DNA from: Diplonema japonicum
Lineage: Eukaryota > Protista > Euglenozoa: Diplonemea
DNA: 64,000 nucleotides
Assembly: GCA_964019335.1 (NCBI GenBank)
Contig: OZ025700.1
Coordinates: 310,001 to 374,000 of the forward strand
Direction: 5' to 3'
The notes under the pieces are model-generated. The model did no database searches and was not told where the DNA came from. It worked only from the letters and a program-made list of their open reading frames with translations. Within the stretch, counting starts at the first letter, position 1, and the number at the start of each line of letters is the position of its first letter. Shown piece after piece: positions 1,968-37,641 of the stretch. A program made the position numbers and the translations under genes.

Positions 1968-1981
1968 CTCCCCCTCTTTTC

Positions 1982-3730: not shown

Positions 3731-4270
3731 TCACTCTTCAGAAATTACTTCACGCACTGGGGGGCCCATTACTTCACGCTAAATCTCATTACTTCACGCT
3801 TAATCTCATTACTTCACGGTGAAATAATGGCCTGTTTTCCGTGAAGTAATAGGGGGTTTCCGTTAAATAATATGCCTCGGTAGGCCAATTTTTGCCTCGG
3901 TTCGGTTCCCAGTGGGGCAACTTTTTCCTCTCAGTTTGCTAATTTCCCCCAGGTTCAGTTCAATTGGCCAACTTTTGCCTCGGCTCAGTTCCAAGTTGGA
4001 CTACTTTTTCCTCCCAATTTGCCCACTTTCCGCTGTCGCTGGCATTGCCACTGTCACCATCTCTAATCAGGCCTTCCCATACCTGGCGCGGCCGCTGGCT
4101 CCTTTTTTTCTGCTGCTTCGGTATTTTGAAGTCATTTGGGCAGCTCTTAGTCAACAAAAGGAGGGAAAACAACTTGTATTGTAACCTTTGTAACCCCTCT
4201 CTTGTTGTACCCCTTGTCACCCTGTTGTGCCCCTCGTGGTGAAGTAATTTCAGAGTGTCGTGAAATAAAA
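3731..4270. mobile_element. MITE-like non-autonomous DNA transposon relic
   Basis: Imperfect terminal inverted repeat cactc..gaaattacttcac (3732-3753) / gtgaagtaatttcagagtg (4239-4257), tandem attacttcacg subterminal repeats, and an internal ~57-bp direct repeat (3883, 3966). Confidence 0.55.
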
Positions 4271-10100: not shown

Positions 10101-10654
10101 TATAATGAACCCGTCCCGTGCAAGATTATGTCAATATGTGATTGGTTTTCAGGAAGCCCAATTGTATCTGCTTGTTCGAGCATTAAAAGCGTGGTGTTTG
10201 GTGTGAGTATGCCTATGGATACGAGGCCGTTAGGACGTTGGTTTGCAAGTTCTGATTTCCAGGAGAGGATTTTGTCGGCCAGAGTGGGGAAGGTGACGGG
10301 TTCGCCGGAATCCGCGAGTTCTCTGATAAAGATGTCGTGCTGAGTCATCGCAGTACGCCGAATATCATCGAGAAACGAGAGGAGCTTGCCGTTGGCATTG
10401 TTCGCAAAGGTACCGATGTAAGCGTGCAGCCATATATCTAAGTTGGTGTCGGCCGTATCGAAACATTTCTTCACTGCAAGGTTGTGGGTGTCCCTTGTGT
10501 TTTCTACTGCTACCGCTTGGGACCGAAATGCCAGGCCTGTCGTTGCAAGCACTACCAGCAATATGCTCATTAAACTTATGCACACGGAGGCGGCCTTAAG
10601 CGATATGAGATCCCGTTTGAAGCTCCCGTCATCATTCTGGTTCGCAAGGTGCAT
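7160..10654 (-). CDS. Receptor-type class III adenylate cyclase (TM - extracellular sensor - TM - HAMP - catalytic domain - degenerate second cyclase-like domain)
   Basis: 1164 aa. Motifs TLVFTDIQGSTKLW, GYEVKTIGDAFMVAF, WNGLRVRMGVHCG and DYFGPTVNTAARVE (euglenozoan AC type); two hydrophobic helices; HAMP-like LKPLTNL...EVAMMQTSF. Confidence 0.93.
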   Translation of the reverse strand: MHLANQNDDGSFKRDLISLKAASVCISLMSILLVVLATTGLAFRSQAVAVENTRDTHNLAVKKCFDTADTNLDIWLHAYIGTFANNANGKLLSFLDDIRRTAMTQHDIFIRELADSGEPVTFPTLADKILSWKSELANQRPNGLVSIGILTPNTTLLMLEQADTIGLPENQSHIDIILHGTGSLYIDNVEEFEDNGTFSGTLSGFPDLNSAMVPGLLISQQVKIGKPTWGAAYAFYQYVGADVVIPYEINGVRAGTVLARNDLRAVSNFLRVSANEAHVLLDDVELRLFAFIHKSSTVVPNTAASFKLKAHNDVGTLMGVSHGSHQWYHGAANNSEPIAPIKMEDAHDALIQQAGILVSCTDIDPAASFCNGVPRLEKIPSTPQSNLSIVTIRYEHQPDHDVNTNDEETHAPKEAPVFRSSRFYIATRDISERYGTFWRLCAVVDHDKLSENVTQTVAELQRDLVRSDNDVQDSIERDRAILLLTVVGISVVMSCVATILTNLLLKPLTNLKEQMNIVAMMKLDKIDADQPRSRLHEVAMMQTSFLSMLRRLKEFRPYIPAYVLVDDTSSEARTPSAPREEEDELEDEQPNQNDTPSPALFNPLVPERQPSVSAAGSSMPRLPAHRDPPPGENLTLVFTDIQGSTKLWGLVGNSAMVESLAIHNNVLRKILEENRGYEVKTIGDAFMVAFDCVLDACRFSIDSQLALVAAPWPTKLSKTQDYAKITSGSGQVIWNGLRVRMGVHCGLVVADNNPVTGRCDYFGPTVNTAARVEGQAVGGLVVATRAVLDALGSDGIARVGDPKILSIGFKELKGIQERVDLIGLVPANLAGRVENVRDQLATRDAFHYTIDQEQGTSAVINSKLRTTLKTADATVVYVQPAFATLFPNVMESMQAVLQTTNQIISAAESAADRTSGMIMDGAGGNITVSYNVSKSCRRHPAKAGVFVGLMNDQIKGKAHVGVATGVVAVGNVGGKKHRFSTILGHTSELSMLLATSACELGTFALGASTASGGIAKEEPFNTRPVDKWTYVGEEILIYELKAMALMPVADAWEKMLLDTDAWSSVQLQDALTRGELNPLRELVRDRPADAVLRKVLTMREKNTSLRPALVSAALQPTRSGSRSEPSDSIFPPLSRTGACISFASPLVPPSRRVSESSTQVSSGQ

Positions 10655-11369: not shown

Positions 11370-12317
11370 TCATTCAAGCGTAACCCAATTATACAGATCG
11401 TCGGCGGACGATGGGGGCCACTGGTGGTTCATGCCTGGAAAGGACTTCCTGACGGTTTGAACACTATGGTTCAGCAGATAGTCATGATACAGGGCAGACG
11501 ACCAGTAAGGAACCAAAGAATCATTGGTACCGTGTGTGAAGAAAGTGCGAGGGTGCGACGGCGGCGAGAAGATCTCCGCAGGCACCTCGTTTGCGATTCC
11601 CGTGCTGCAGGTCTCCCCGTAACAATAGTAAAACGAGCCCGACAGTATCGAAATAGATTGGTATCTATGAGGGTAATTCACCGCCATCCTTCCAGACATG
11701 TATGCACCCGAGGAAAACCCAATACTGTGTACCATATTCGGATTGCACGGACCGAAAAACCCAGATTTACATTTCGACAGAATCCAGTCTACTTCTGTGT
11801 TGTCTCTGCTTGTGTTCCAAAGCTTCAGATCCGGGGAAACATATGGGGTTTGATTTGTTTCCCAATACGTGGTTTTCTCGTTGGAGTCAGGTGTTACCAC
11901 ACCGTACCCCATATTGAGGAATTTTTCCACGGTTTGAGCCTTGTAAAACAGGCCGTACGAGTACCAGTCCTCAGCGTACCAACAATAGACAGAGTTCATG
12001 AGGCCCCAGCCGTGGTAAATTACGACGAATGGCCAACCTTCTTCGGGGGCTTTTCCCTCGGGGGTCTGCCATCCTACCCAGCGGTCTTCGAAAGTTGTGT
12101 TGTGGTAAGTGCATGATACATATTCCCAGTTGGACTTGCAACGGCCGCTTCCCTGTTTGCCAGCTTCAGTCTTTCTCCCTATGGTGGGGGACATCCTCGC
12201 TTTATTCGTTTCTAGTTCTGTCTTCCATTCTTCCGATGGCCAGCTCTCCGTTTGCTTTTCGTGTGTTTTATGTGTACTGGTGAGACATAATATAGCCAAG
12301 TGAAAGGTCGCTAACAT
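11370..12317 (-). CDS. Secreted alpha/beta hydrolase, extracellular mcl-PHA (poly-3-hydroxyoctanoate) depolymerase-like
   Basis: Short hydrophobic N-terminus; WQTPEGKAPEEGWPFVVIYHG, GFFGPCN, lipase box GFSSGAYMSGRMAVNYP, HPRTFFTHGTNDSLVP, NHQW (Ser-Asp-His triad). Motif order matches bacterial PhaZ mcl-PHA depolymerases as recalled. Confidence 0.75.
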   Translation of the reverse strand: MLATFHLAILCLTSTHKTHEKQTESWPSEEWKTELETNKARMSPTIGRKTEAGKQGSGRCKSNWEYVSCTYHNTTFEDRWVGWQTPEGKAPEEGWPFVVIYHGWGLMNSVYCWYAEDWYSYGLFYKAQTVEKFLNMGYGVVTPDSNEKTTYWETNQTPYVSPDLKLWNTSRDNTEVDWILSKCKSGFFGPCNPNMVHSIGFSSGAYMSGRMAVNYPHRYQSISILSGSFYYCYGETCSTGIANEVPAEIFSPPSHPRTFFTHGTNDSLVPYWSSALYHDYLLNHSVQTVRKSFPGMNHQWPPSSADDLYNWVTLE

Positions 12318-12733
12318 TTTTTTTGTCCTTTACAAAAACGTGGTGCAAATAAAGATATTGAAAGGAGGGGGGTAAAAAAAGAGAAAAAAAAGAAGAAAGA
12401 AAAAAAAGAGATGAGATATAAGGAGGTTTTCCTTTTTTTTTTTTTTTTTTTTGGAACGTCTCCCCCCACCTTTGTCTACTTATCTCAAGAAAAATTGGGG
12501 GAGGGGAGGGGAAGAGTGTAATGTGTGCAGTATAGTTATGGTTAAAACTCGTTGTTTTTTTTGTTTTCGCTTTTTCTTTTTTTGAGTAAGAAGAGGGGGG
12601 GGGACCCCCTTGAAAAGAAGTGAGTCTTCCTTTTCTCGGTGCGCACTGTGTACAAATTTTATCTTTCAATTATATTATTAACCATGCTGCACTATTGAAC
12701 AATAAAAAGGAGAGAGAACAAAAAAAGGAGCGG

Positions 12734-21864: not shown

Positions 21865-22009
21865 GGTAACACATTGTTTGAGCAGCTTCCTCTTTCAGTA
21901 TGGTTTCTTTTTTCTTTTTTTCTTCTCAGTTTCTTCTTTTTTTTTTCTTCCATTGAGAGCTGTCCCTTGTTATAAGAAAGGCAAGGTGAACAGCAATGTT
22001 CATTCAGCG

Positions 22010-22320
22010 CTAGTAGTAGTACGCCCTGGGGCTCACGACAGTGTCGTAGTAGCGCGGAGAGGCCAAGGCGTCGTAGTAACGAGGGGAGGTCGCCGAGGTG
22101 TAGTAAGCATCACGGATGCGCCTCGCAGAGGCATCGGCCTCCACACGAGCTGTCGCTGCAGCCACATCAGCAGCCACACCGTAGGTGGTGCTGTAGGCAG
22201 AGCTGTAGTAAGGTGTGTAAGCAAGGGAAGAGGTGTAGGGGACGGTGGCACGTGCAACAGCAAGGTCGGCCTCAGCACGAGCAACAGCAACATCGACAGA
22301 GGTCGGTGCGACGTAGTAGA

Positions 22321-22324
<4 letters not shown>
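22010..22324 (-). CDS. Tyr/Ala-rich SPR-YY small protein, array copy 1 (104 aa, lacks VSPRV)
   Basis: ATG to TAG ORF conserved across 10 copies while flanks diverge; strong codon bias (TAC, GCC). Confidence 0.85.
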
Positions 22325-22365
<41 letters not shown>

Positions 22366-22600
22366 GAGTTTTTTAAAATGTAAGTGTGGAAAGCTGTAGG
22401 TGTTCTAACATCAAGGAATGGGAAAGAATAGTTAACTGAAACACCCCCTCGGGTGGGCAGAGGGGTGTAGAGTCGTACAAACAAACAAAGTTGCAACAAA
22501 AAGGGAGCCCTCCTAGCTAAAGGAGGGTCCCCCACCGTCGCTGTGTCATGTGGTGTGGGGGGAGGGAGTCGAATTGTTTAAAGGGTGCTACTTTGCACCT

Positions 22601-22636
<36 letters not shown>

Positions 22637-22732
22637 ATCTTTCTTGGTTCGTTTAGTTTAATACAATAAACAACCACACCCTGTTATAAGGTGTTCAGGA
22701 AGTGGTTGTCTGTGAAACTATCCCCCTTGCCT

Positions 22733-23062
22733 TCAGTAGTAGTACGCCCTGGGGCTCACGACAGTGTCGTAGTAGCGCGGAGAGGCCAAGGCGTCGTAGT
22801 AACGAGGGGAGGTCGCCGAGGTGTAGTAAGCATCACGGATGCGCCTCGCAGAGGCATCGGCCTCCACACGAGCCGTTGCTGCAGCCACATCAGCAGCCAC
22901 ACCGTAGGTGGTGCTGTAGGCAGAGCTGTAGTAAGGTGTGTAGGCCAAGGAAGAGGTGTAGGGGACGGTGGCACGTGCAACAGCAAGGTCGGCCTCAGCA
23001 CGAGCAACAGCAACATCAACAGAGGTCACCCTCGGGGACACAGGTGCGACGTAGTAGACCAT
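22733..23062 (-). CDS. Tyr/Ala-rich SPR-YY small protein, copy 2 (109 aa)
   Basis: MVYYVAPVSPR...SPRAYYY-TGA; near-identical to the other copies. Confidence 0.85.
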   Translation of the reverse strand: MVYYVAPVSPRVTSVDVAVARAEADLAVARATVPYTSSLAYTPYYSSAYSTTYGVAADVAAATARVEADASARRIRDAYYTSATSPRYYDALASPRYYDTVVSPRAYYY

Positions 23063-23449
23063 TTTGTGTTTATAAGGTGTTTTAAGTGGAGTTGAAAGCT
23101 GTGGGTGCTGACATGAGAAAATAATGGAAATAAGTAAAATATAAGAAAAGCGGAAACACCCCTCGGGTGGGCAGAGGGGTGAAGAGTCGGTACAAACAAA
23201 CAAAGTTGCAACGAAAAGGAAGTCCTCCTAGCTAAAGGAGGGCCCCCCACCGTCGCTGTGTCATGTGGTGTGGGGGGGGGGGGGGGAGTGAAACTGTTTT
23301 AAGGGTGCTACTTTGCACCTGTTTCTTTTCATCTTTTTTTTATTGTATCTTCTTTGGTTCGCATGTTTGGTTTAATACAAGAATAAACAACCACACCCTG
23401 TTATAAGGTGTTCAGGAAGTGGTTGTCTGTGAAACTATCCCCCTTGCCT

Positions 23450-23779
23450 TCAGTAGTAGTACGCCCTGGGGCTCACGACAGTGTCGTAGTAGCGCGGAGA
23501 GGCCAAGGCATCGTAGTAACGAGGGGAGGTCGCCGAGGTGTAGTAAGCATCACGGATGCGCCTCGCAGAGGCATCGGCCTCCACACGAGCTGTCGCTGCA
23601 GCCACATCAGCAGCCACACCGTAGGTGGTGCTGTAGGCAGAGCTGTAGTAAGGTGTGTAGGCCAAGGAAGTGGTGTAGGGGACGGTGGCACGTGCAACAG
23701 CAAGGTCGGCCTCAGCACGAGCAACAGCAACATCAACAGAGGTCACCCTCGGGGACACAGGTGCGACGTAGTAGACCAT
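23450..23779 (-). CDS. Tyr/Ala-rich SPR-YY small protein, copy 3
   Basis: Same ORF as copy 2 with minor substitutions. Confidence 0.85.
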   Translation of the reverse strand: MVYYVAPVSPRVTSVDVAVARAEADLAVARATVPYTTSLAYTPYYSSAYSTTYGVAADVAAATARVEADASARRIRDAYYTSATSPRYYDALASPRYYDTVVSPRAYYY

Positions 23780-25261
23780 TTTATTTATATTATTTGGAGT
23801 GAAAAAAGAAGCTGTGTGGAAAACTGTGAATATATCCAAGTAAGAAAAAGTATTCAATATGAAAAAAAAAAGAAAAAAACTTAAAGTACAGGACAAGCCC
23901 CCCGCTAGAGGGCCGCCCTATGGGAGGGGGGGGGGGGTCTAAAATCTTGGCCCTATTTGGCATGTTGGATTTCACTCACAGGTTTTGGCATGTTGAAAAT
24001 TTTCGCTGTTAGTCCGGGTTTCGTCGCCGTAGGCCTTGGGCCTACGACAACGAACCCTTGTATTTCCCGCCCGCGGCCTGCGGCCGCGGTGCCACGACCG
24101 TTCCTCGGCCTTCGGCCTCGGAACCCACTGCCCTGACGCGGCCTTCGGCCGCGTTGCCCGTTAAAAGAAGTAATGCAGTGACTATTCACTATGAAAAACA
24201 AACTACTGACTTGTTGAGCGCTCCAAAAATCTCTTTTGTGAAAGGTACAAAAGCCTTTGGTATGCGTTCTTTTTCTTTCAATCGATTGTTATATGTACTT
24301 ATAAAATATTGCGCGCATTAGACGACACTGATTAAGCGACTGGCACCTTCCGAAGAAGGGCCTCCCATGTCCGCCGTGTTGAGCAGAGGATGCCCCGGGG
24401 CGGGCGTTCCAGTCTGATCATGTCGCACTATAATATATTTCTCATCTTCTAGAAGAAAATGAAGTTTTTGCCCTCGAAGAGCGCCGGGCCAGCACTCTTA
24501 CTTGCGTAAGGTGTTCTTCGGATGGCGCTGCCTGACGTTGTGCCATTGCAGCGTCGAGAAGAACAGCCAGTCAGTCGCCATGGAGTAGTGATCCTTTAAG
24601 GCTCTCCTATCTCCATGCCGCGTGTACTGTTGCCGTCTCTCGACGTCCCCCTTCGCCTTCCAGCCTTCCAAGTCAAACTGGCCATGAACCACGTGTTCCA
24701 ATGCCTCAAGTTCCACACCTTTTCTCCTGCAAAGCCACACACTTCTTGTAACACCCTTGTTTACTAGTGCCCTTAATTCCGTATGAAGAAAGGATCTTTG
24801 TATTATTATCATTTGGTCGATATATCATGAGTTTTAATTATAAACTTTCTTTGGCATGATTGCTTCCTTAACACGGTTATTGCATGGTTGTACTCATTAA
24901 AGACTAGTTTTCATTTGTGAGTAGTGCAGTGTTCCCTCTCAATGTTGCTGTTTCTTTTTTTTTTTTGTTTTCGTCGGATCAGCTACCTTGGAACGTCCAC
25001 ATACTTCCGCTATTCTATTCCATTTTAGAGGAGATGCACTCTTCTAGCAAGCTAGTGTAGATCACATTAGTGCTTCAAGGATTATCTGACGTTACCTGGT
25101 GCGGCTCTTCACAGGTCCCCACCCACTTCGCTATGGTTTCCTAATCGATTTCTCTTTTTTTCTTTTTTCACTCACTGAGGGCCTCATTATTTCCTCCGGC
25201 GACGACGGACGCAGCAGCAAACCCAGGCAGAGGTGGCAGGCACCTGCAGAACACGAACGAC

Positions 25262-25300
25262 CAATAAAGTACAGAAACTGTAGCTTTAGAATCATTGGTC
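25262..25300 (-). ncRNA. Spliced-leader (mini-exon) sequence, diplonemid type; probably the 5' end of a retroposed trans-spliced RNA rather than a functional SL RNA gene
   Basis: Minus strand reads GACCAATGATTCTAAAGCTACAGTTTCTGTACTTTATTG. The 3' CAGTTTCTGTACTTTATTG is the conserved kinetoplastid/diplonemid SL core. Followed by GTCGTT rather than GTATG; no Sm site seen. Confidence 0.88.
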
Positions 25301-25492
25301 TTACTTTTTCTTTTTCTTTTAGCCCGACCACTCACGTAACAGTCCGAGAAGGCCTCTCTTCGCGCCTCAGCTATGTCCGGGAACACCACATCAGCAACAC
25401 TCTTTGGCTGGGTTGCAGGTATTTTAAAAGAATTGGTTTTTGTGATATAATGATGGGAAAAGAGCTGTAAGAAATGTGGTGAGAATATGTTG

Positions 25493-25788
25493 TTGAGCAT
25501 TAATGAAACTAAGGGGGCCCAATTGGGCACTTCCGGGACTAAGGGGTACTTTGAGCATTTATGAAACTAAGGGGACCGAATTCGAGATCTAAAAACTTAC
25601 GGGTCAAGTATGAGGTTCTTTTTGAAGACTTGGGGTACTACGCAGAGATTTAGGAAACCTTGGGGACAGGACCAGAAACCCTTCCTTCCTTAAAGATAGA
25701 CCTTGAACATTGCTCAAACTAAGGGGGAAACTAAGGGGGTGGATTTTGAGCATTTCTCCGAACTTTGGGTCAAGTCAGCAGTTTTCTC
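25493..25788. repeat. Mutator-like long TIR arm with ~30-bp-periodic AACTAAGGGG motif
   Basis: Motif variants at about 25507, 25538, 25565, 25594, 25627, 25656, 25717, 25729 and 25761, ending in ...cagttttctc. Partner arm not found. Confidence 0.5.
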
Positions 25789-27528
25789 TTTTTTTTTTCC
25801 CACAAGGGAGGGATCTACAACCACCCCTCGCAATTCCGTTCGCTTCCGCTCCTGTGGCAAAGCACAGGCGGACCCAAAGAATGAAAAGATGAAGAAAACA
25901 GTCGTTAACGCGCCAAAAACCTTGCACGCTCTGCAGGCCCTGGAGAGGCCCTCATTTCCCTTAAGAAAAAAAATGGGCTTGACAAAAATCTTGGAACGAT
26001 TTGGCATGTTGAATTTTCTCTTAGGAAACTCACGGCCCTGGAGAGCGTTGCAAGCTGCAAGGTACAAAAACATCGCGCATCATGGCTATTTCCGTTTCAT
26101 GCTTACTGTTCCGCGTAGCCGAGTATCCTGCTATTTTCGCTGCCTGGTTGACTCAGGACTCGTTCCACGGGTGCACGATGACAACAACAAGAACATGCGG
26201 GAGGAACACATAAACTACAGGAGGCTCCTCTGGAGGATGTCAGTCACCTTTATTGACACTTCCCTCTTCACCCGTTTTTCAGTTTTCTCGCTCTTATCCC
26301 TACGTGCAGTAACATTTCTGCCACCTGGGAAGAACACTTCCGCAGGTGTTGAGAGTATCTCGATCATCCCACGCCAGCTCCTGTCAACACCACGCGTCAC
26401 CACCTGCAGCCTCTCTACGGCTATCTACCACTGTTCTATTCCCACGTAAACAAGAACCCGTCTGTCATCACTGAATAGGCTTTATCATACGAGATGGAAC
26501 CTGTTTCTGCAGAATTCATCTTGTCCGCCACGTTTATTATTTTCACTGTGTTGTCCGACATCTCACTGAAGGCGTAGTCACCCTCACTCACGAGTACTGC
26601 CCCACTGAACTAATGGAGCCCTCTTGACGAGCTCTTGACCCGCGACGGCAGCCACAGCGAACAGCAACATTTTAGTTTGACAGAAGAGGAGGCGGGGAGG
26701 GGATCAATAAACCTATTTTAACTTTTAAAGAGGTCAAGAGTTGATTTATCAACTGGAACCAATAGTGCACGACGGTGCTTGGGGACATTCCTTAGTCGCT
26801 GGGGACATGAAGAAGATATTCCTGCTCGTTCTTGTTACTCCCTGCTTCCTTTGGAGTCCTTGTAGTGTCCAGAGACACAGGTACAAGATGTGTGCAGCAG
26901 AGCAGGACGGTTACGACACGCGTGAAGGGAGTGTACTATCTAATCTACAGTGACGGAAATGTTGCGGAGGCTGACTGCGATACATCTTTCTCCCAAGCAC
27001 CGGGAATACCACCTGTTGGTCATGGAGACTGTGACCACGGCAGCTACTAAGGTGTGGTGGAGGATATGCAGCGATTTCTGAACTTCAATCAGGAGGCCCC
27101 TCCAACGATCCTCAACGAAGGTATTGCAATACACGCCTCAAGAGGTCTTTGTTTGTTAGACAATGTGCCAAAGAGTTGAAAGCGAAATTAAAGCAAAAGA
27201 AAAAATAAAATAAAAATAAAAGTATAAGAAAAGCGGAAACATCCCCTCGGGTGGGCAGAGGGGTGAAGAGTCGGTACAAACAAACAAAGTTGCAACGAAA
27301 AGGAAGTCCTCCTAGCTAAAGGAGGGTCCCCCACCGTCGCTGTGTCATGTGGTGTGGGGGGAGGGAGTGAAACTGTTTTAAGGGTGCTACTTTGCACCTG
27401 TTTCTTTTCATCTTTTTTTTATTGTATCTTCTTTGGTTCGCATGTTTGGTTTAATACAAGAATAAACAACCACACCCTGTTATAAGGTGTTCAGGAAGTG
27501 GTTGTCTGTGAAACTATCCCCCTTGCCT

Positions 27529-27858
27529 TCAGTAGTAGTACGCCCTGGGGCTCACGACAGTGTCGTAGTAGCGCGGAGAGGCCAAGGCGTCGTAGTAACG
27601 AGGGGAGGTCGCCGAGGTGTAGTAAGCATCACGGATGCGCCTCGCAGAGGCATCGGCCTCCACACGAGCCGTCGCTGCAGCCACATCAGCAGCCACACTG
27701 TAGGTGGTGCTGTAGGCAGAGCTGTAGTAAGGTGTGTAGGCCAAGGAAGTGGTGTAGGGGACGGTGGCACGTGCAACAGCAAGGTCGGCCTCAGCACGAG
27801 CAACAGCAACATCAACAGAGGTCACCCTCGGGGACACAGGTGCGACGTAGTAGACCAT
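27529..27858 (-). CDS. Tyr/Ala-rich SPR-YY small protein, copy 4
   Basis: Same ORF; G->S variant (TTYSVAAD). Confidence 0.85.
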   Translation of the reverse strand: MVYYVAPVSPRVTSVDVAVARAEADLAVARATVPYTTSLAYTPYYSSAYSTTYSVAADVAAATARVEADASARRIRDAYYTSATSPRYYDALASPRYYDTVVSPRAYYY

Positions 27859-28252
27859 TTTGTGTTTATAAGGTGTTTTAAGTGGAGTTGAAAGCTGTGG
27901 GTGTGCTGACATGAGAAGAACATGAAATAATAGAAATAAGTAAAAATTAAACTAAAAGCGGAAACACCCCTCGGGTGGGCAGAGGGGTGAAGAGTCGGTA
28001 CAAACAAACAAAGTTGCAACGAAAAGGAAGTCCTCCTAGCTAAAGGAGGGCCCCCATCCGTCGCTATGTCATGTGGTGTGGGGGAGGGAGGCGAATTGTT
28101 TAAAGGGTGCCACGTTGCACTTGTTTCTTTTTTTTTTTTAAATATTTTTTTTTTTGTTTCTTCGCATGTTTGGTTTAATACAAGAATAAACAACCACACC
28201 CTGTTATAAGGTGTTCAGGAAGTGGTTGTCTGTGAAACTATCCCCCTTGCCT

Positions 28253-28582
28253 TCAGTAGTAGTACGCCCTGGGGCTCACGACAGTGTCGTAGTAGCGCGG
28301 AGAGGCCAAGGCATCGTAGTAACGAGGGGAGGTCGCCGAGGTGTAGTAAGCATCACGGATGCGCCTCGCAGAGGCATCGGCCTCCACACGAGCTGTCGCT
28401 GCAGCCACATCAGCAGCCACACCGTAGGTGGTGCTGTAGGCAGAGCTGTAGTAAGGTGTGTAGGCCAAGGAAGTGGTGTAGGGGACGGTGGCACGTGCAA
28501 CAGCAAGGTCGGCCTCAGCACGAGCAACAGCAACATCAACAGAGGTCACCCTCGGGGACACAGGTGCGACGTAGTAGACCAT
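28253..28582 (-). CDS. Tyr/Ala-rich SPR-YY small protein, copy 5
   Basis: Same ORF, 109 aa. Confidence 0.85.
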   Translation of the reverse strand: MVYYVAPVSPRVTSVDVAVARAEADLAVARATVPYTTSLAYTPYYSSAYSTTYGVAADVAAATARVEADASARRIRDAYYTSATSPRYYDALASPRYYDTVVSPRAYYY

Positions 28583-29726
28583 TTTATTTTTGGAGTGAAA
28601 AGGGAAGGGTGTGTGGAAAACTGTGAATAAATGTCTTCAAGTTGCAAAGGCTGAATCGACGACAGCTCTTTCTCCCAAGCACCGGGAATACCACCTGTTG
28701 GTCATGGAGACTGTGACCACGGCAGCTACTAAGGTGTGGTGAGGGCATCGGGTTTAAGAACGTATGTAAAAACAAAAGAATAGAAAAAAAAACAATCAGA
28801 AAAAACCCCTCGGGTGGAGGGATAAAGCATCGGTACACACGAACAATGGTGCAACAAGAGGGAAGTCCTCCCAAAGAAGGCTCCCACCGTCGCTTGTCAT
28901 GTGGCGTGGGGGAGAAGGGGGGGAAAAAAAAATTACGAGAATTTAAAAAAAAGAAAAATTGAAATAAAGGGAGAAAGAGAGGGAAATAAAAACACGACAT
29001 TCGTTTCTTTTTTATAAAATACCGACCCTCCCACTTTTGTTCTCAATTAAGAAGTGGCAAAAGTTCTTTTTTTTTTTTTTTTTGCTGGATCTCTATAACC
29101 ATCCTTAAGTAGGAGGCTTCCCATAAAGGGGCACGTGGCTACGAGAAAATGAGGGTGGGCTAAAAGAAAAGAAAGAGAAAGTCGCAAAATGTGAGAGGGA
29201 GAAAAAAGAAGCTTTTGCTTGAGTGTGCAAGGGGCGGCACCGACACAAAAAGCAGGCATATGAGATTAGTTTTTTCTTCTTCTTCCTTCCTTTCCCCCCT
29301 CTTATCAAAGAAAGAAGTACAAAACAACCTCATAAAAGAAATCAGGGGAAAGGGGGGGGGGGTTATATTTTCAGGTTTGTGTTTCTGGAAGAAAAAGAAA
29401 ACAAAAAAAAAAAAGAAACATTAGGGAATTGGAGAAGCCGGCGATCGATGTGCAATTCCATGACACGGGTCATGTAAGTTTGCTGTCACCAAAATAAAAA
29501 AAATAAAAAACCTTTTATTTTTTTATATTTTCTCTCCCTGGTTCTTTTTTGTTTCCTTTCCCTCCCCTTTTTCAGTTTTTTTTTTTTTTTTTAAACAATG
29601 TGTTAACATAAGAAAGGATCTTCGGAAGTCCAGCCAACCCCCGACACAAGACATTTTGCGCGATAGGTCACAAAAAGGGAGGGGGAGAGGGAGTGGGGAG
29701 AAGTCAAACAAAGCTACCTTTCTTTT

Positions 29727-31433
29727 CTAGTTGCTGATTTTTTTGCACTCAGGTGCGTACCAGCACCTCCTCAGGCACCTGGCCCACCACCTGCTCTGCT
29801 GGTAGCACGCAAGCCCTGCCTCACAGCAGTTCGGGTTCTGCATGCACCCACCCCACATTCCGATCCTGCGTGCGCACTGGTTGTCAGCTGTGGGCACGGG
29901 AGTGGAAGCATCAGTCGGCATAGGGGTAGGCATAGGAGTGGGTGCAGGTGTCTTGCCAGCAGTGGGCATGGGAGTAGGCATAGGAGTAGGCATGGGTGTA
30001 GGCTCAGGAGTAGCATCAGGCTCGTTTGCAGGCTGAGGAGTGGGCATAGGCGTCGGCATAGGAGTGGGCATGGGTGTAGGCATAGGAGTGGGCATGGGAG
30101 TAGCATCAGGCTCGTTTGCAGGCTGAGGAGTGGGCATAGGAGTGGGCATGGGAGTAGGCATAGGGGTAGGCATAGGGGTGGGCATGGGAGTAGGCATAGG
30201 GGTGGGCATGGGTGTAGGCATGGGAGTAGAAGGAGGGTTGGGGTTACTGCCACTACTGCAGCCCCTTGTCTGGCTGACTGTGCGACCCACTGTCTGCGAC
30301 CAGTCACCGTTGGTGTCGTGGAGAGCGACCCAAAAGAAAGCCCCCCCGTTGCAAGGGTACTCTTTGTTCAGGTCGTTCATTACGCTGACAGCCTGCTGCG
30401 CGTTGCTGTTGGAGCCGGTGCCTGAGCAGTCGCTGATGCAGAACCCAAACACCACCTTCGTAGGGTCGTTCCCGAAGCAGTCCGTCACAAGGGTTTTGAA
30501 GTGCTGCAGGGCGGACTCGTGCACTCCCCCGTTGATCCCATCTGTGTTGGGGCGCGTCACCCCGTTGTAGTACTGCGGCATGAGGAAGTCCATGGAGCTT
30601 GCCACTTCCTTGATGACGTTGTAGTAGCCGGTCCCCTTCTTCATGTCGATGTCCATAGGGGCGTGCGAGACTTCCTTCCCGGAGGGGAGGCTCTGCCTCA
30701 GCCCGACTGTCACGTCCTTAAGGAACTTCTGAGCCTGGGCACCCTTAGCGAAGGAGGACCCCCTCTGACCGTTCTCGTAGTAGTACTCGTAGTCGATGTC
30801 CACCCCGTCGAAGCCCTGGCTCCTGGAGATGTCGACAAGCTGCTGGATGACGTAGTCCTCCTTCCCGTAGCAGTACTCCCAGCAGTCGTTGAGGCCGTCC
30901 CAAGAGCCACCCATGCCCGCTCCGCCGAATGACAGGATAACCTTTTTACCAGCAGCACGCCACTTGGAGATGAGGCCAGGGTTTGGCGCGTTGTTGCAGA
31001 CAGGGACAGGGGTGCTGATCTTGCACTGTTGGTTGCACTGGTTCTTGCCGGGTGCCCAAGTGTAGGTCACAGCGAAGGAAACGAGGATGTGGGTGTAGGC
31101 GTTCACCTGGGCGTCTGTGGGGCAGGCTTGCCAGTTCCCGACATACGCAATGAGCCTGCTGTCGTGCTCTGCCTTTGCACTAGGACCAGGAGGGGGTGTC
31201 GGGGGGTTGGGGGTCGGCTCCGGTGCGGGGACAGTCCCTCCCATACTCGGGCACCATGTTGCTCCATTTGCCGCACATGCACCTGCACTGCCGCCACCTG
31301 GGTAACACGGCTCTGCCCACCCTGATTTATAACAGGGTTCCCCTCTATTGATGCACCTTTGACAATCGGCCGTCGACTGCCCTGACGCAGCACCTACGAG
31401 CATTGCGAGTCCTAAAATCTTCATTGCCGTCAT
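29727..31433 (-). CDS. Secreted GH18 chitinase: signal peptide, Cys-rich N-module, GH18, (PTPM)n linker, C-terminal CBM1-like module
   Basis: [15 protein letters not shown] signal; KVILSFGG; catalytic FDGVDIDYE (DxxDxDxE); PQYYN; GAFFW; WGGC...[18 protein letters not shown]. Confidence 0.92.
29915..30230 (-). repeat. Coding 12-nt tandem repeat (PTPM)n with duplicated PQPANEPDA insert
   Basis: ggcatgggagta/ggcataggggtg units within the chitinase linker. Confidence 0.9.
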
Positions 31434-31655
31434 CTTTTAAAAATCTGTGGTGTTGAGGTTTGTCTACAGTGGTTGAAAGAAAAAACAAAAACAAAAAAAG
31501 ATAAGTAGGGAGACGAATAGCATAAGAGTGCTTTGCACCTGGTCTTTATATCTTCTTTGGTTCGCATGTTTGGCCTAATACAAATAAAAACAACAACCAC
31601 ACCCTGTTATAAGGTGTTCAGGAAGTGGTTGTCTGTGAAACTATCCCCCTTGCCT

Positions 31656-31997
31656 TCAGTAGTAGTACGCCCTGGGGCTCACGACAGTGTCGTAGTAGCG
31701 CGGAGAGGCCAAGGCGTCGTAGTAGCGAGGGGAGGTCGCCGAGGTGTAGTAAGCATCACGGATGCGCCTCGCAGAGGCATCAGCCTCCACACGAGCCGTC
31801 GCTGCAGCCACGCTGTATGAGGGGCTGTACGCGGAGCTGTAGGCAGAACCGTAGGTCGAGCTGTAGTAAGGTGTGTAAGCAAGGGAAGAGGTGTAGGGGA
31901 CGGTGGCACGTGCAACAGCAAGGTCGGCCTCAGCACGAGCAACAGCAACATCAACAGAGGTCACCCTCGGGGACACAGGTGCGACGTAGTAGACCAT
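31656..31997 (-). CDS. Tyr/Ala-rich SPR-YY small protein, copy 6 (113 aa, variant central segment)
   Basis: Central YSSTYGSAYSSAYSPSYSV replaces YSSAYSTTYGVAADV; frame preserved. Confidence 0.85.
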   Translation of the reverse strand: MVYYVAPVSPRVTSVDVAVARAEADLAVARATVPYTSSLAYTPYYSSTYGSAYSSAYSPSYSVAAATARVEADASARRIRDAYYTSATSPRYYDALASPRYYDTVVSPRAYYY

Positions 31998-32426
31998 TTT
32001 ATGTTTATAAGTGGAAAACTGCGCAAAAAAGTGACGAAATGAGCGACATCGAAAATATGAATGGGAAAGCAGAGTGAGAAAATAAGGTACCAAAGCAACA
32101 TTTGTGCTCACCTTCATGTAGATTGGAAGCCTACTCTCTTACACGTCGGCCTTCCTTACTACATAGCTCTTCTGGAATCTTAGGAACTCACAGGAAGAAA
32201 AAGGGGGGAAGAAGGCCATCCAGTTAAAAAAAAAAAAAAGAATCGATTCTAAGAAACGTACCAAATAATGTTGGATCATGCGAACCTTTTCTTGACCGGA
32301 AACCAAGGGGGGAGATCTAAAATGGTACAGGGGCGGGTTTTCAACCTCATTAGAAATTCCCCTCGTCCTTTTTATTTTCTTTTTTTTCTTTTTTTTATTT
32401 TTATTTTTTCTATTGAAGCACGTAAC

Positions 32427-33557
32427 CTAGGCAGTTGCCATCAGCTGGAAGATGTCATCGACTTGACCGAAGCCGATTTTGAGAAGGAAGGTTGGGTCTC
32501 TTGCGTAGGCTTTGCCACCAGCCACGAAGAAGGAGGGCTCGGGGGTATTCAAGGTGGCCGCCCCACCTGAGACCTGCTGGAGGCAGTCTGCAGTGGCAGA
32601 CCCCCCACGGCTGGTCAAAAGGTACGCGGAAAGAGCCATGGGCCCCTCGGACCCGTAGCAGATGTGGTTGCGCAGCTCACGTGTAATTGACAGGTCAGGC
32701 TGGAAGCCGACCAGCGAGAAGAGCACGTCGTACTCCAGCGTGAAGGGGCCTTCCTTGCCTTCGAACACAACGGTGTCGGCGTGCACCTCTGTGAGAGACC
32801 CGACCCTCCTCTCCACCCCGTTGGCGAAGGAGGCCAGGTCGTTCCTCTGCGGCAGGGGGTCGTTGTCGATCAGCGTGAAGGGCGCCTTCTCCTTCCTGGT
32901 CACCCACACCACACTCTTCATCTCCCCGTACTTCTGCGTCAACATGAACTTCATCAGCGTGGCTGCGCTGTACCCCGCACCTATAACGACAGCCCGCTTA
33001 CCCGACAGGTCTGTCCCGTCGCGGGGGATCTCGCTCTGCACGCGCCCCAGTTTCCTTTGCTTCTTTTCCCCAATGGCGGGGATGCCACCTGTCCCAGGCG
33101 ACTTGAAGTTGCCGTAGCACCCCGAGGCGTCGATGAGCGTGTCGAAGGGTGTGAAGACCTGCTCCTCGCCGTCGACCTCTGCCAGCACGCGGAAGGGTGC
33201 CCCCTTGCGGTCCGTGTCGGACTTCAGAAGCCCCGCGCGCCCCACGTTCGTCACTGTGCAGTTCTTCACGATTCGAACGCCCTTCGCCACAAGGTGCGCT
33301 TCCACCTTCTCAAGGACAGCCGTGCGGTACTCCCCTCCTGTGGGGAACACCTCGTCGTCGACCACCACCACACGCCTCATCCGCTCCGAGAGGTTCAGCT
33401 TGTTCTTGCTGAATAGTTGCACGTCGCCCCACCTCCGCAGGTTCTCCCCCACAACGCTGCCCTTCTCCAACACAGTCACCTCCATCCCTTCCTCTACACC
33501 CTTCAGTGCCGCGTCCAGACCCACAGGCCCCCCGCCAATGATGCATAATTTCGTCAT
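32427..33557 (-). CDS. Bacterial-type FAD/NAD(P)-dependent oxidoreductase (flavoprotein monooxygenase-like)
   Basis: Two Rossmann motifs IIGGGPVG and VIGAGYSA; WGDVQLFS; IDASG; C-terminal PEPSFFVAGGKAYARDPTFLLKIGFGQV; intronless, high GC3. Confidence 0.85.
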   Translation of the reverse strand: MTKLCIIGGGPVGLDAALKGVEEGMEVTVLEKGSVVGENLRRWGDVQLFSKNKLNLSERMRRVVVVDDEVFPTGGEYRTAVLEKVEAHLVAKGVRIVKNCTVTNVGRAGLLKSDTDRKGAPFRVLAEVDGEEQVFTPFDTLIDASGCYGNFKSPGTGGIPAIGEKKQRKLGRVQSEIPRDGTDLSGKRAVVIGAGYSAATLMKFMLTQKYGEMKSVVWVTRKEKAPFTLIDNDPLPQRNDLASFANGVERRVGSLTEVHADTVVFEGKEGPFTLEYDVLFSLVGFQPDLSITRELRNHICYGSEGPMALSAYLLTSRGGSATADCLQQVSGGAATLNTPEPSFFVAGGKAYARDPTFLLKIGFGQVDDIFQLMATA

Positions 33558-33900
33558 CTTTCGTTGCCTCGGTCTCTCTGTGCGGGTGAGTCGTGGGCAG
33601 AATATGTGAGTTGACTAAAATAAAAGAAAAAGAAGAAGGAAAATCGGGCCATTGCGGCACCAAAAAAAAGCGACTTGAGAGGAAGGGAAAATGAGTGTAT
33701 GGTAAATACTCGTGGGGGGCTACGAGGGGGGATACAAACAAAGATTATAATTTTTTGTAGGCCTTCGAAAAGAGGGGCGCCCATGCTTCAGTAAAAAAGC
33801 TTTACCTCTGTGTTATAGGACCACAGAGGCAGGGACGGCTCTTTCGTGCACTGTGTGTGGGTGTCTTGTTATTGCACAACTTATAATTAATTTCCTCAAC

Positions 33901-34230
33901 TTAGTAGTAGTACGCCCTGGGGCTCACGACAGTGTCGTAGTAGCGCGGAGAGGCCAAGGCGTCGTAGTAACGAGGGGAGGTCGCCGAGGTGTAGTAAGCA
34001 TCACGGATGCGCCTCGCAGAGGCATCGGCCTCGGCACGGGCTGTCGCTGCAGCCACGCTGTATGAGGGGCTGTAGGTGGAGCTGTAGGCAGAGCTGTAGT
34101 AAGGTGTGTAGGCCAAGGAAGAGGTGTAGGGGACGGTGGCACGTGCAACAGCAAGGTCGGCCTCAGCACGAGCAACAGCAACATCAACAGAGGTCACCCT
34201 CGGGGACACAGGTGCGACGTAGTAGACCAT
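33901..34230 (-). CDS. Tyr/Ala-rich SPR-YY small protein, copy 7 (variant central segment, TAA stop, unique 3' flank)
   Basis: YSSTYSPSYSVAAATARAEAD variant, 109 aa. Confidence 0.85.
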   Translation of the reverse strand: MVYYVAPVSPRVTSVDVAVARAEADLAVARATVPYTSSLAYTPYYSSAYSSTYSPSYSVAAATARAEADASARRIRDAYYTSATSPRYYDALASPRYYDTVVSPRAYYY

Positions 34231-34611
34231 TTTGTGTTTATAAGGTGTTTTAAGTGGAGCTGAAAGCTGTGGGTGCTGACATGAGAAAATAATGGAAATA
34301 AGTAAAATATAAGAAAAGCGGAAACACCCCTCGGGTGGGCAGAGGGGTGAAGAGTCGGTACAAACAAACAAAGTTGCAACGAAAAGGAAGTCCTCCTAGC
34401 TAAAGGAGGGCCCCCCACCGTCGCTGTGTCATGTGGTGTGGGGGGAGGGAGTGAAACTGTTTTAAGGGTGCTACTTTGCACCTGTTTCTTTTCATCTTTT
34501 TTTTTTGTATCTTCTTTGGTTCGCATGTTTGGTTTAATACAAGAAACAACAACCACACCCTGTTATAAGGTGTTCAGGAAGTGGTTGTCTGTGAAACTAT
34601 CCCCCTTGCCT

Positions 34612-34941
34612 TCAGTAGTAGTACGCCCTGGGGCTCACGACAGTGTCGTAGTAGCGCGGAGAGGCCAAGGCGTCGTAGTAGCGAGGGGAGGTCGCCGAGG
34701 TGTAGTAAGCATCACGGATGCGCCTCGCAGAGGCATCGGCCTCCACACGAGCTGTCGCTGCAGCCACATCAGCAGCCACACCGTAGGTGGTGCTGTAGGC
34801 AGAGCTGTAGTAAGGTGTGTAGGCCAAGGAAGTGGTGTAGGGGACGGTGGCACGTGCAACAGCAAGGTCGGCCTCAGCACGAGCAACAGCAACATCAACA
34901 GAGGTCACCCTCGGGGACACAGGTGCGACGTAGTAGACCAT
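34612..34941 (-). CDS. Tyr/Ala-rich SPR-YY small protein, copy 8
   Basis: Same ORF; 5' flank matches that of copy 5. Confidence 0.85.
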   Translation of the reverse strand: MVYYVAPVSPRVTSVDVAVARAEADLAVARATVPYTTSLAYTPYYSSAYSTTYGVAADVAAATARVEADASARRIRDAYYTSATSPRYYDALASPRYYDTVVSPRAYYY

Positions 34942-35569
34942 TTTATTTTTGGAGTGAAAAGGGAAGGGTGTGTGGAAAACTGTGAATAAATGTCTTCAAG
35001 TTGCAAAGGCTGAATCGACGACAGCTCTTTCTCCCAAGCACCGGGAATACCACCTGTTGGTCATGGAGACTGTGACCACGGCAGCTACTAAGGTGTGGTG
35101 GAGGATATGCAGCGATTTCTGAACTTCAATCAGGAGGCCCCTCCAACGATCCTCAACGAAGGTATTGCAATACACGCCTCAAGAGGTCTTTGTTTGTTAG
35201 ACAATGTGCCAAAGAGTTGAAAGCGAAATTAAAGCAAAAGAAAAAATAAAATAAAAATAAAAGTATAAGAAAAGCGGAAACATCCCCTCGGGTGGGCAGA
35301 GGGGTGAAGAGTCGGTACAAACAAACAAAGTTGCAACGAAAAGGAAGTCCTCCTAGCTAAAGGAGGGTCCCCCACCGTCGCTGTGTCATGTGGTGTGGGG
35401 GGAGGGAGTGAAACTGTTTTAAGGGTGCTACTTTGCACCTGTTTCTTTTCATCTTTTTTTTATTGTATCTTCTTTGGTTCGCATGTTTGGTTTAATACAA
35501 GAATAAACAACCACACCCTGTTATAAGGTGTTCAGGAAGTGGTTGTCTGTGAAACTATCCCCCTTGCCT

Positions 35570-35899
35570 TCAGTAGTAGTACGCCCTGGGGCTCACGACA
35601 GTGTCGTAGTAGCGCGGAGAGGCCAAGGCGTCGTAGTAACGAGGGGAGGTCGCCGAGGTGTAGTAAGCATCACGGATGCGCCTCGCAGAGGCATCGGCCT
35701 CCACACGAGCCGTCGCTGCAGCCACATCAGCAGCCACACTGTAGGTGGTGCTGTAGGCAGAGCTGTAGTAAGGTGTGTAGGCCAAGGAAGTGGTGTAGGG
35801 GACGGTGGCACGTGCAACAGCAAGGTCGGCCTCAGCACGAGCAACAGCAACATCAACAGAGGTCACCCTCGGGGACACAGGTGCGACGTAGTAGACCAT
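35570..35899 (-). CDS. Tyr/Ala-rich SPR-YY small protein, copy 9
   Basis: Protein identical to copy 4, 8041 nt away, with matching flanks. Confidence 0.85.
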   Translation of the reverse strand: MVYYVAPVSPRVTSVDVAVARAEADLAVARATVPYTTSLAYTPYYSSAYSTTYSVAADVAAATARVEADASARRIRDAYYTSATSPRYYDALASPRYYDTVVSPRAYYY

Positions 35900-36293
35900 T
35901 TTGTGTTTATAAGGTGTTTTAAGTGGAGTTGAAAGCTGTGGGTGTGCTGACATGAGAAGAACATGAAATAATAGAAATAAGTAAAAATTAAACTAAAAGC
36001 GGAAACACCCCTCGGGTGGGCAGAGGGGTGAAGAGTCGGTACAAACAAACAAAGTTGCAACGAAAAGGAAGTCCTCCTAGCTAAAGGAGGGCCCCCATCC
36101 GTCGCTATGTCATGTGGTGTGGGGGAGGGAGGCGAATTGTTTAAAGGGTGCCACGTTGCACTTGTTTCTTTTTTTTTTTTAAATATTTTTTTTTTTGTTT
36201 CTTCGCATGTTTGGTTTAATACAAGAATAAACAACCACACCCTGTTATAAGGTGTTCAGGAAGTGGTTGTCTGTGAAACTATCCCCCTTGCCT

Positions 36294-36623
36294 TCAGTAG
36301 TAGTACGCCCTGGGGCTCACGACAGTGTCGTAGTAGCGCGGAGAGGCCAAGGCGTCGTAGTAACGAGGGGAGGTCGCCGAGGTGTAGTAAGCATCACGGA
36401 TGCGCCTCGCAGAGGCATCGGCCTCCACACGAGCTGTCGCTGCAGCCACATCAGCAGCCACACTGTAGGTGGTGCTGTAGGCAGAGCTGTAGTAAGGTGT
36501 GTAGGCCAAGGAAGAGGTGTAGGGGACGGTGGCACGTGCAACAGCAAGGTCGGCCTCAGCACGAGCAACAGCAACATCAACAGAGGTCACCCTCGGGGAC
36601 ACAGGTGCGACGTAGTAGACCAT
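36294..36623 (-). CDS. Tyr/Ala-rich SPR-YY small protein, copy 10
   Basis: Same ORF, unique 5' flank. Confidence 0.85.
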   Translation of the reverse strand: MVYYVAPVSPRVTSVDVAVARAEADLAVARATVPYTSSLAYTPYYSSAYSTTYSVAADVAAATARVEADASARRIRDAYYTSATSPRYYDALASPRYYDTVVSPRAYYY

Positions 36624-37641
36624 TTTATTTTTTTGTGTTGAAGTGTGGAGTGGAAAAAACTGTAGGAAAGTTGCAAATATACGTGTGAATGGATGCTTCT
36701 AAAGGGCTCATCGAGAGGAGGCCACACAGAGGGCGACCCGTTTAAAGAAGATACGAAGGGGAAATATAAAGAGCTGAGGAAGAGAGAGAAAGAGAGAGAA
36801 TAAAAGGGTTCTTGGTTTGCACCCTACTTTTTCTTTTATATTTACTTTGTGTGAAAGTCGGAATGGCGAGCTAAGAGTTAAAGAGAAGAGAAAAAAAAAA
36901 AGAAATTCTGAACTGAAATCATCGTTGTAAAGAATTGCTTTTTTTGTTTTCTTAAAAAAAAATATTTTTCGTTTAGAAACAGATTTCAATGCAGCATGAA
37001 GAGAGAGAGAAAAAGGAGAAGAAAAAAGAAAAAGTAATGGAAACGAAAGCCAAATTGTGGGGATGGGAGGGGAAGGGTGAAAGTAGAAAAGAAGGAAGTG
37101 AGAAAGAAGAAATAAGGTAGAAGTGAAACAAGCCATGAAACAAGCGCACACAGGGGGACAAGATCAACCCTGAATCTTTTTTTTGCTACATTTCTTAGCC
37201 TGTGACCCCTTCCCTCATCTCCTTTTCTCTTTTCTTCCTCCCTTCAAAATTTCCCCCCTTCCACCTCCTTCCTTTTGAAAATTTGGTAAAGGGTTTCCTT
37301 TTTTTTTATGGTACCCTTACTCCTATCTTTTCCTTTTTTAGAAAAAAACACTCGTTTTCTTGTTTCTCCCCCCCCCCCCCCCCCCATTCCGCCATGCGAC
37401 CCACTCAATAACAAAACAAAAAAAAAACAAAAAAAAAATGTGTAAAAAGATAAGTTGAAAAAAAAAAGGGGGAAAAAAAAGTACACCTCACACGCTTATA
37501 TTATTTTTTTTTTTAAATTTTTAGTGCGAAAAAAAAAAGAAAGAAAGGGGGAAAAAAAAAAATTAAAAAACGATCAAGATGTGGTTTTCTTTTTAAAAAT
37601 CCGTTTCCTCGTTTTTTTTTTTTTTTTTTTTTTTTTTCCCT

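What the first reader, a model, noticed from the sequence alone, without database searches (positions are those of the whole stretch)
25150..25330. Spliced-leader sequence in genomic DNA heading a ~130-nt A-tailed insert
Seen: minus strand GACCAATGATTCTAAAGCTACAGTTTCTGTACTTTATTG, then ~92 nt of GC-rich sequence, then AAAAAAGAAAAAAAG. A similar AAAAGAAAAAG lies just upstream (possible TSD or A-rich target). Known: this matches the 39-nt diplonemid mini-exon as recalled, about 4 differences, all in the 5' third. True SL RNA genes continue GTATG..., contain an Sm site and end in a T-tract; none of these is present. Inference: a reverse-transcribed trans-spliced RNA or SL-headed SINE, i.e. mRNA recycling like dinoflagellate relict SLs. 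It sits ~200 nt from a Mutator-like arm, so it may be a captured passenger.
Basis: partly seen in the sequence, partly recalled or inferred. Interest (0 to 1): 0.8.

Follow-up and report, generated by a model that had tools for sequence, protein, structure and literature searches.

The report
Spliced-leader-headed repeat fragment in Diplonema
A near-perfect copy of the spliced leader, the short tag these marine flagellates put on every messenger RNA, sits in a nest of repeats followed by about 60 bases of a multi-copy sequence that is unlike normal leader genes; it is likely the stranded front end of a jumping gene that lives in the leader genes, a habit known from trypanosomes, rather than a recycled messenger RNA.

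Summary
The leader is real: 25300-25262 (-) differs at 2 of 39 positions from the commonest full exon in metagenome hits and from the published Diplonema sp. leader. The body is not an ordinary SL RNA intron, although it does begin with GT. Contigs of public runs split the '92-nt body'. Only the first ~62 nt are multi-copy (roughly 25-30 times single-copy depth). That family runs on for 236 nt or more into other sequence, not into the window's last 30 nt and A tract, which share the depth of the flanks (about 9 times). So leader + 92 nt + A tail is not an amplified SINE, and nothing marks it as a recycled mRNA. Best reading (0.5): the head of an SL-gene-resident, CRE/SLACS-like retroelement, copied once from capped RNA into an A-rich site and then duplicated with its flanks. 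No reverse transcriptase could be reached, so membership is untested. This scan has already noted leader-headed retrotransposons on other DNA (Euglena, comb jellies, a sea squirt, and another piece of this genome); those notes are unchecked.

The parts
25262..25300 (-). Spliced-leader exon copy; matches from nt 2, with position 7 changed; position 1 is G here, and some sibling copies have the missing A
   Evidence: extra base behind 25300 in 2 contigs of X1, 1 of X3 and 1 of X11 (table 4)
25199..25261 (-). Head of a multi-copy family: begins GT, 2 A in 63 nt, no Sm-like motif; the window differs from most copies at 25216, 25234 and 25245
   Evidence: (tables 2, 3, 7)
25169..25198 (-). 30 nt not shared with the main family; depth close to that of the flanks; origin unresolved
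   Evidence: loose ends at 25197 and 25201; depth table; no significant match elsewhere in the insert
25149..25168 (-). Downstream A-rich tract (possible tail or target-site duplication)
25301..25320 (-). Upstream A-rich tract; shares an 11-nt word with the downstream tract and varies in length among sibling copies
   Evidence: table 4
25480..25801 (-). Arm with a GGG-A-run start and short subterminal repeats, Mutator-like by recalled pattern only; no partner arm in the insert
23836..26960 (.). About 3.1-kb patchwork of repeats of very different depth, interrupting a spacer of a tandem array of small genes
   Evidence: (table 2)

Best explanation
The leader and the next ~62 bases are a fragment of a longer multi-copy family, likely the front end of a retrotransposon that sits inside spliced-leader genes (CRE/SLACS-like), and this fragment was probably copied once from a capped RNA into an A-rich site and later duplicated with its flanks. 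Shown: leader + 62 nt recurs at high depth in the laid runs, continues elsewhere into other sequence, and is unlike SL introns; a second class of leader followed by GTA exists in the same runs; the flanks are themselves repeated and carry deletions. Inferred: about 25-30 copies; most copies share one upstream sequence, taken to be the SL gene promoter; the element would be transcribed from nt 1 of the interrupted gene, so its RNA would start with the leader without trans-splicing; reverse transcription of such an RNA at an off-target A-rich nick, with early priming, template switching or later deletion, would leave this 5' stub. Not reached: any coding sequence of the family.
For: Depth: in X2 one contig of depth 2802 covers the head against about 100 for unique pieces, while window-type letters account for 167 at all three variant sites. 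X1 and X4 give a similar rough ratio per contig. Continuation: loose ends at 25197 in 5 contigs of X1, 1 of X2 and 1 of X11 (236 nt) agree with each other. Separate GTA class: loose ends at 25260 in 25 contigs of X1 and 4 of X4. Few upstream contexts: in X4 at most 16 of 26 partly laid contigs can be upstream junctions. In X1, 12 contigs at 25299 agree at 0.84 on one sequence with T at -1, the base seen in 31 of 35 metagenome SL genes. The retained GT fits origin in an SL gene. Analogues: 3 of 91 metagenome loci (L025, L036, L054) have related sequence joined exactly at leader nt 12 and then leader + GT + non-intron sequence; two carry homologous reading frames upstream (44% identity). SLACS has 16-18 copies per haploid genome and is suggested to be transcribed from +1 of the interrupted SL gene (PMC3447711). 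D. papillatum has 745 SLACS-annotated RT proteins. Bracketing A tracts: two of three A-rich clusters on this strand of the insert flank the unit; window-wide such a tract starts within 10 nt in 4% and within 100 nt in 19% of positions.
Against: No reverse transcriptase, no 3' end and no poly(A)-leader junction of the family was seen; only 30 letters of the continuation are printed. The tool warns that contig depth is not a copy number and that a filter drops records, so the copy estimate and the upstream-context count are soft; 49 loose-end rows were hidden. Dispersed copies exist: a 12,037-nt single-depth contig of X4 holds leader nt 26-39 plus 43 nt of head, and the 7 upstream ends in X4 agree at only 0.49, which fits a dispersed family as well. 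Retrotransposition normally leaves 3' ends, not 5' stubs (recalled), so an extra step is needed. The analogue loci come from other organisms, may be one organism, and their frames had no Pfam or Atlas assignment. 745 SLACS-like proteins against 110 SL genes in D. papillatum implies that most such elements there are not in SL genes.
Confidence: 0.5

Rival explanations
1. The family is a dispersed retrotransposon (LINE or non-autonomous partner) whose RNA receives the leader by trans-splicing, so full-length copies start with the leader anywhere in the genome.
For: Dispersed copies with other flanks (records 17 and 24; heterogeneous upstream ends in X4); a second subfamily diverging at 25250; an almost A-free head, hence no AG acceptor or ATG in most copies. 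Unchecked scan notes describe leader-headed elements in Euglena, comb jellies and this genome; these are leads only.
Against: Fewer upstream contexts than estimated copies; one dominant upstream sequence with T at -1 in X1; GT directly after the exon would be coincidence (about 1 in 16).
Confidence: 0.25
2. The family is a second, divergent class of SL RNA gene or an SL pseudogene array, and the window copy is a 3'-truncated retrocopy or orphon of it.
For: Exon nearly intact, GT retained, homogeneous copies, shared upstream sequence. The intron model also misses true bodonid-type SL genes (L007, L020, L038, L053, L066), so it cannot exclude a very divergent intron.
Against: No GTA; no Sm-like motif (found in 21 of 39 GTA-type sequences); 2 A in the window's 63 nt against 10-24 A in the first 62 nt of the 39 GTA-type sequences; folds worse than 196 of 200 shuffles (z +1.7) while two true introns give z -3.8 and -2.8; a GTA class is present in the same runs; the family runs on for 236 nt or more.
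Confidence: 0.13
3. One reading: leader + 92 nt + A tail is one trans-spliced, polyadenylated RNA (mRNA fragment or SINE) that was reverse-transcribed with a target-site duplication.
For: A-rich tracts on both sides with a shared 11-nt word; leader starts at nt 1-2. A short derivative of the family with its own 30-nt end is not excluded, and in X1 a ~31-nt stretch at about 25163-25193 draws extra depth (about 50,000) from an unknown repeat.
Against: Siblings share both flanks; in X4 the last 30 nt are at most about twice the flank depth, against more than ten times for the head; no loose ends at the tail in X1 or X4 among the 19 rows shown of 68; only a 17-codon frame follows the first ATG.
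Confidence: 0.12

Closest known systems
CRE clade (SLACS, CZAR, CRE1, CRE2) of trypanosomatids (PMC12278014, PMC3447711; passages read)
   Same: Leader exon followed by non-intron sequence; tens of homogeneous copies; RNA that would start at leader nt 1.
   Different: Host is a diplonemid; this copy is off-target and only ~62 nt of the element remain; RT, endonuclease, poly(A) end and duplication were not seen; dispersed and 5'-truncated leader copies exist.
Relict DinoSL on dinoflagellate retrogenes (PMC5585692; passages read)
   Same: A near-intact leader in genomic DNA away from SL genes, probably via cDNA.
   Different: No coding sequence follows; the downstream sequence is a repeat family; one leader core in 64 kb, against more than 20% of genes in Symbiodinium.
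Diplonemid SL RNA gene (39-nt exon + 75-nt intron in D. papillatum, PMC10161547; metagenome genes)
   Same: Exon sequence; GT after the exon.
   Different: No GTA, Sm site, stem-loops, T tract or T at -1; no 5S, U2 or tRNA neighbours.
3'-truncated small-RNA retropseudogenes and U6/L1-type template-switch chimeras (recalled, from no call)
   Same: Exact RNA 5' end, missing 3' part, A-rich target.
   Different: The source here is probably a long element RNA, and the copy was re-amplified at the DNA level.

Membership tests
Canonical SL RNA gene | 39-nt exon | tested here: met
   37 of 39 identical
Canonical SL RNA gene | Intron starting GTA with diplonemid-type sequence | tested here: not met
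   GTC; intron model gives no match on the body while held-out L034 scores 52 bits
Canonical SL RNA gene | Sm site, stem-loops, T-tract terminator | tested here: not met
   tested on the window copy, and only 30 further letters of the family were visible
CRE/SLACS retrotransposon | Copies inserted at a fixed position of SL RNA genes | tested here: inconclusive
   Few upstream contexts and one dominant one in X1, but contigs break inside the exon so upstream and downstream cannot be linked; the window copy itself is not in an SL gene
CRE/SLACS retrotransposon | ORF with RT and restriction-like endonuclease | not testable with these tools
   No genome held; read-laying prints 30 letters of loose ends; patterns found nothing in viral or prokaryote contigs
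CRE/SLACS retrotransposon | 3' poly(A) followed by a duplicated part of the exon | not testable with these tools
   No such row among the 19 of 68 loose-end rows shown; the depth bins cannot resolve it
SINE | Many independent insertions of the whole short unit with own flanks | tested here: not met
   Last 30 nt and tail track the flanks; siblings share both flanks
SINE | A tail and target-site duplication | tested here: inconclusive
   Shared 11-nt A-rich word, 4 nt away from the leader, low complexity
Relict-leader retrogene | Leader upstream of an intronless copy of a protein gene | tested here: not met
   First ATG opens 17 codons; no minus-strand frame of 120 codons starts downstream within 1 kb
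Pack-MULE | Paired terminal inverted repeats and target-site duplication around the captured piece | tested here: not met
   Self-comparison of 23800-27260 finds no partner arm; may be lost by deletion

The most novel reading that the evidence does not exclude
Diplonema carries a dispersed, promoterless retroposon family whose 5' end is the host's cap-bearing spliced leader and whose next ~90 bases have been purged of A, so that no AG acceptor or start codon can erode or pre-empt the head; leader-capped element RNAs are reverse-transcribed to the cap and seed leader copies around the genome.
Probability: 0.2. Interest if true: 0.65.

Novelty: new member of a known kind. Interest (0 to 1): 0.35.

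Why it matters
If the best reading holds, SL-gene-resident retroelements extend from kinetoplastids to diplonemids, and their capped RNAs sometimes land off target. Genomic leader copies in Diplonema then cannot be read as mRNA recycling without looking at what follows them. It also points to a GTA-type intron class that is probably this organism's true SL RNA gene. The locus itself is most likely inert debris in a repeat nest. My searches of the open library listed no paper on leader-headed repeats in diplonemids. Subscription papers, Repbase and the main supplement of PMC10161547 were not available and could already describe them.

Tried and rejected
No whole genome is held, so no direct genome search was possible. 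Rfam on 23000-28000 at E<=1: 0 matches. No tRNA in the window. Run search: no RNA holder listed. X3 behaves like RNA by my own reading of depth and joints, but I draw no conclusion on expression. blastn of the body against the 91 metagenome loci: best 18 nt, E 0.027. A leader-body junction pattern found 0 matches in viral contigs and 0 in prokaryote genomes. Idea that the last 30 nt belong to the repeat at 23941-24010 and 25946-26030: rejected on sequence, scores 19-20 against a background median of 17 and 95th percentile of 23; only one joint in X1 links that repeat to 25117. The end of the X11 contig at leader nt 12 is explained by word length and is not evidence of an insertion site. X11 had a small share of words and 2 laid contigs and may be the same organism at low level; it is used only for the length of the continuation. 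Pfam on the analogue frames of L025, L036, L016 and L030: nothing; L063 had a weak zf-RVT hit below cut-off. Atlas on L036: unnamed clusters at 0.87, no use. For the intron model I used 19 of 23 diplonemid-type GTA sequences and left out L002, L042, L060 and L067, which looked atypical after the first bases. L056 and L080 repeat model members and are not independent controls. Scan notes by sequence and near this place: nothing; two word searches were empty. The G at position 1 could be a cap-derived extra base, but siblings disagree, so I did not use it.

Full report
Observation. The minus strand at 25300..25262 holds the 39-mer described, followed by 93 nt and an A-rich tract, with a similar tract upstream. 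Its 19-nt core is the only match in the window at up to 3 mismatches; 0.04 are expected. A scan of metagenome contigs for the leader's 3' part plus GT gave 91 loci. The commonest full exon in them (31 occurrences) differs from the window at positions 1 and 7 only, and it fits the Diplonema sp. leader listed in the supplement of PMC3795323 (rows seen). The host is therefore taken as a diplonemid; unchecked scan notes on this genome say Diplonema.

Not a canonical SL gene. Diplonemid-type genes in those loci continue GTA (invariant in 19 of 19 aligned), mostly show a U-rich Sm-like motif and two hairpins, and have T at -1 in 31 of 35 SL genes of all types. The window continues GTC and has no Sm-like motif. 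It has 2 A in 63 nt, against 10-24 in the first 62 nt of 39 GTA-type sequences and 7-27 in 48 others. It folds worse than 196 of 200 shuffles, while two true introns give z of -3.8 and -2.8. A sequence-only model of the 19 introns finds the held-out L034 at 52 bits and nothing on the body. It also misses bodonid-type genes, so a very divergent intron is not strictly excluded.

Setting. The unit lies in a ~3.1-kb insert (about 23836-26960) that interrupts a spacer in a tandem array of ten ~110-codon genes. Depth across the insert in X2 ranges from about 100 to 36,000 per bin: a patchwork of repeats. A Mutator-like arm (pattern recalled) starts at 25801 and points towards the leader, but no partner arm was found.

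What the public runs show. The run types are not on record. X1, X2 and X4 behave like DNA and X3 like RNA by my reading of depth (the tandem gene is 10-22 times the unique stretch in X2 and X4, and over 10,000 times in X3). Depth is not a copy number, so the ratios below are rough. (1) Only 25199-25261 is high. In X2 one contig of depth 2802 carries other letters at 25216 and 25234 (the other letter at 25245 has depth 3007 over 3 contigs), unique pieces have about 100, and the window's letters account for 167 at all three sites. So the family has roughly 28 near-identical copies and the window's allele is present at one or two. (2) At 25197-25201 the family leaves the window and continues into one related sequence in X1, X2, X4 and X11, for at least 236 nt in X11. 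With the three majority letters and the 30 printed letters, about 90 nt after the leader would contain no A; this is my reading of the tables, not an assembled sequence. A second subfamily leaves at 25250 (X2, X4). (3) The last 30 nt and A tract have depth 157-378 in X4, like the flank (117-216) and unlike the head (1745-4446); flank depth in X2 is about 900. An unexplained ~31-nt match adds about 50,000 in X1 at 25163-25193. (4) A separate class, leader followed by GTA, appears as loose ends at 25260 in 25 contigs of X1 and 4 of X4; it is probably the true SL gene. (5) Upstream of the leader, 12 contigs of X1 agree at 0.84 on one sequence ending in T at -1, while 7 of X4 agree at only 0.49. 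At most 16 of the 26 partly laid X4 contigs can be upstream junctions, fewer than the estimated copies, though a filter drops records and 49 of 68 rows were hidden. (6) Other dispersed copies exist: a 12,037-nt X4 contig of depth 17 holds leader nt 26-39 plus head, and a 1333-nt X3 contig holds leader plus 21 nt internally. (7) The composite has deletion forms: 25211 to 25272 in X1 and X11, 25240 to 25272 in X1, and 25213 to 26314 with 11 filler letters in X1 and X4.

Analogues. In 3 of the 91 loci (L025, L036, L054) related sequence joins the leader exactly at nt 12 and the exon is followed by GT and non-intron sequence. L025 and L036 carry homologous frames upstream (44% identity, E 2e-43) that Pfam and the Atlas did not name. 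[quoted passage not shown] PMC3447711 (passages) gives 16-18 SLACS copies and transcription suggested to start at +1 of the interrupted gene. PMC10161547 (passages and supplement tables) reports 110 SL genes with a 75-nt intron and 745 SLACS-annotated RT proteins in D. papillatum; its main supplement could not be read. PMC5585692 (passages) describes relict leaders upstream of coding sequences, which is not the case here. PMC4640811 (passages) and PMC3795323 (passages) gave background only.

Mechanism. Shown: leader + 62 nt is the head of a longer family, and this copy is a diverged stub inside a re-amplified composite. Inferred: the family sits mostly behind the SL promoter, which explains the intact exon, the retained GT, the homogeneity and the copy number; its RNA would begin at leader nt 1. 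The stub starts at nt 1 or 2 without promoter sequence. It lies between two of the three A-rich clusters on that strand of the insert (chance of the pair about 0.04 x 0.19 on window-wide rates). That suggests one reverse-transcription event at an A-rich site. The missing 3' part needs early priming, a template switch or a later deletion; deletions are common in this composite.

Verdict. Real feature, more ordinary than proposed: most likely debris of an SL-associated retroelement in a lineage where I found none described in the searches run. Membership of the CRE clade is untested. Similar leader-headed elements were noted by this scan elsewhere; the sequence look-ups found no look-alike of this stretch. 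Interest 0.35.

Noticed in passing
window 21887-36764: Tandem array of ten near-identical ~110-codon minus-strand genes for an Ala/Tyr/Val-rich protein with no Pfam match; 26961-28591 is duplicated at 35000-36632 with 99.3% identity.
   Followed up: partly
window 29727-33614: A GH18 chitinase-like gene with a long Pro-Thr-Pro-Met repeat and a Cys-rich tail, and a flavin-dependent oxidoreductase gene, lie inside the tandem array.
   Followed up: partly
window 25260 (loose ends in X1, X4): Leader followed by a GTA-starting sequence unlike the metagenome diplonemid introns after the third base; candidate true SL RNA gene of this organism.
   Followed up: partly
window 25282-25302 (joint in X1, X4): A single-depth locus elsewhere has two leader 5' parts in tandem, 29 letters apart, reminiscent of stacked relict leaders (table 5c).
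   Followed up: no
L011, L019, L029, L031, L039, L043, L068: Diplonemid-type SL RNA genes sit beside tRNA gene clusters: 7 of 13 loci scanned carry 2-12 tRNA genes, unlike the SL-5S-U2 unit reported for D. papillatum.
   Followed up: partly
L025:1500-1527, L036:1500-1527, L054: Related elements joined at leader nt 12, with an unnamed conserved C-terminal domain upstream; candidate SL-targeting retroelement family in another euglenozoan.
   Followed up: partly
L042:222-710 (-): An HNH endonuclease frame (E 2.5e-7) starts directly after a leader exon + GTA; L063 has a zinc-knuckle and endonuclease-like frame on the opposite strand next to a leader.
   Followed up: no
window 24017-24158: A 41-nt imperfect palindrome and GC-rich short repeats near the left end of the insert, possibly the end of another transposon.
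   Followed up: no
window 7160-10654 and 11370-12329: Receptor-type adenylate/guanylate cyclase gene and an alpha/beta-hydrolase gene; several genes in the window are interrupted by short stretches with long A runs on the coding strand that look like small introns.
   Followed up: no
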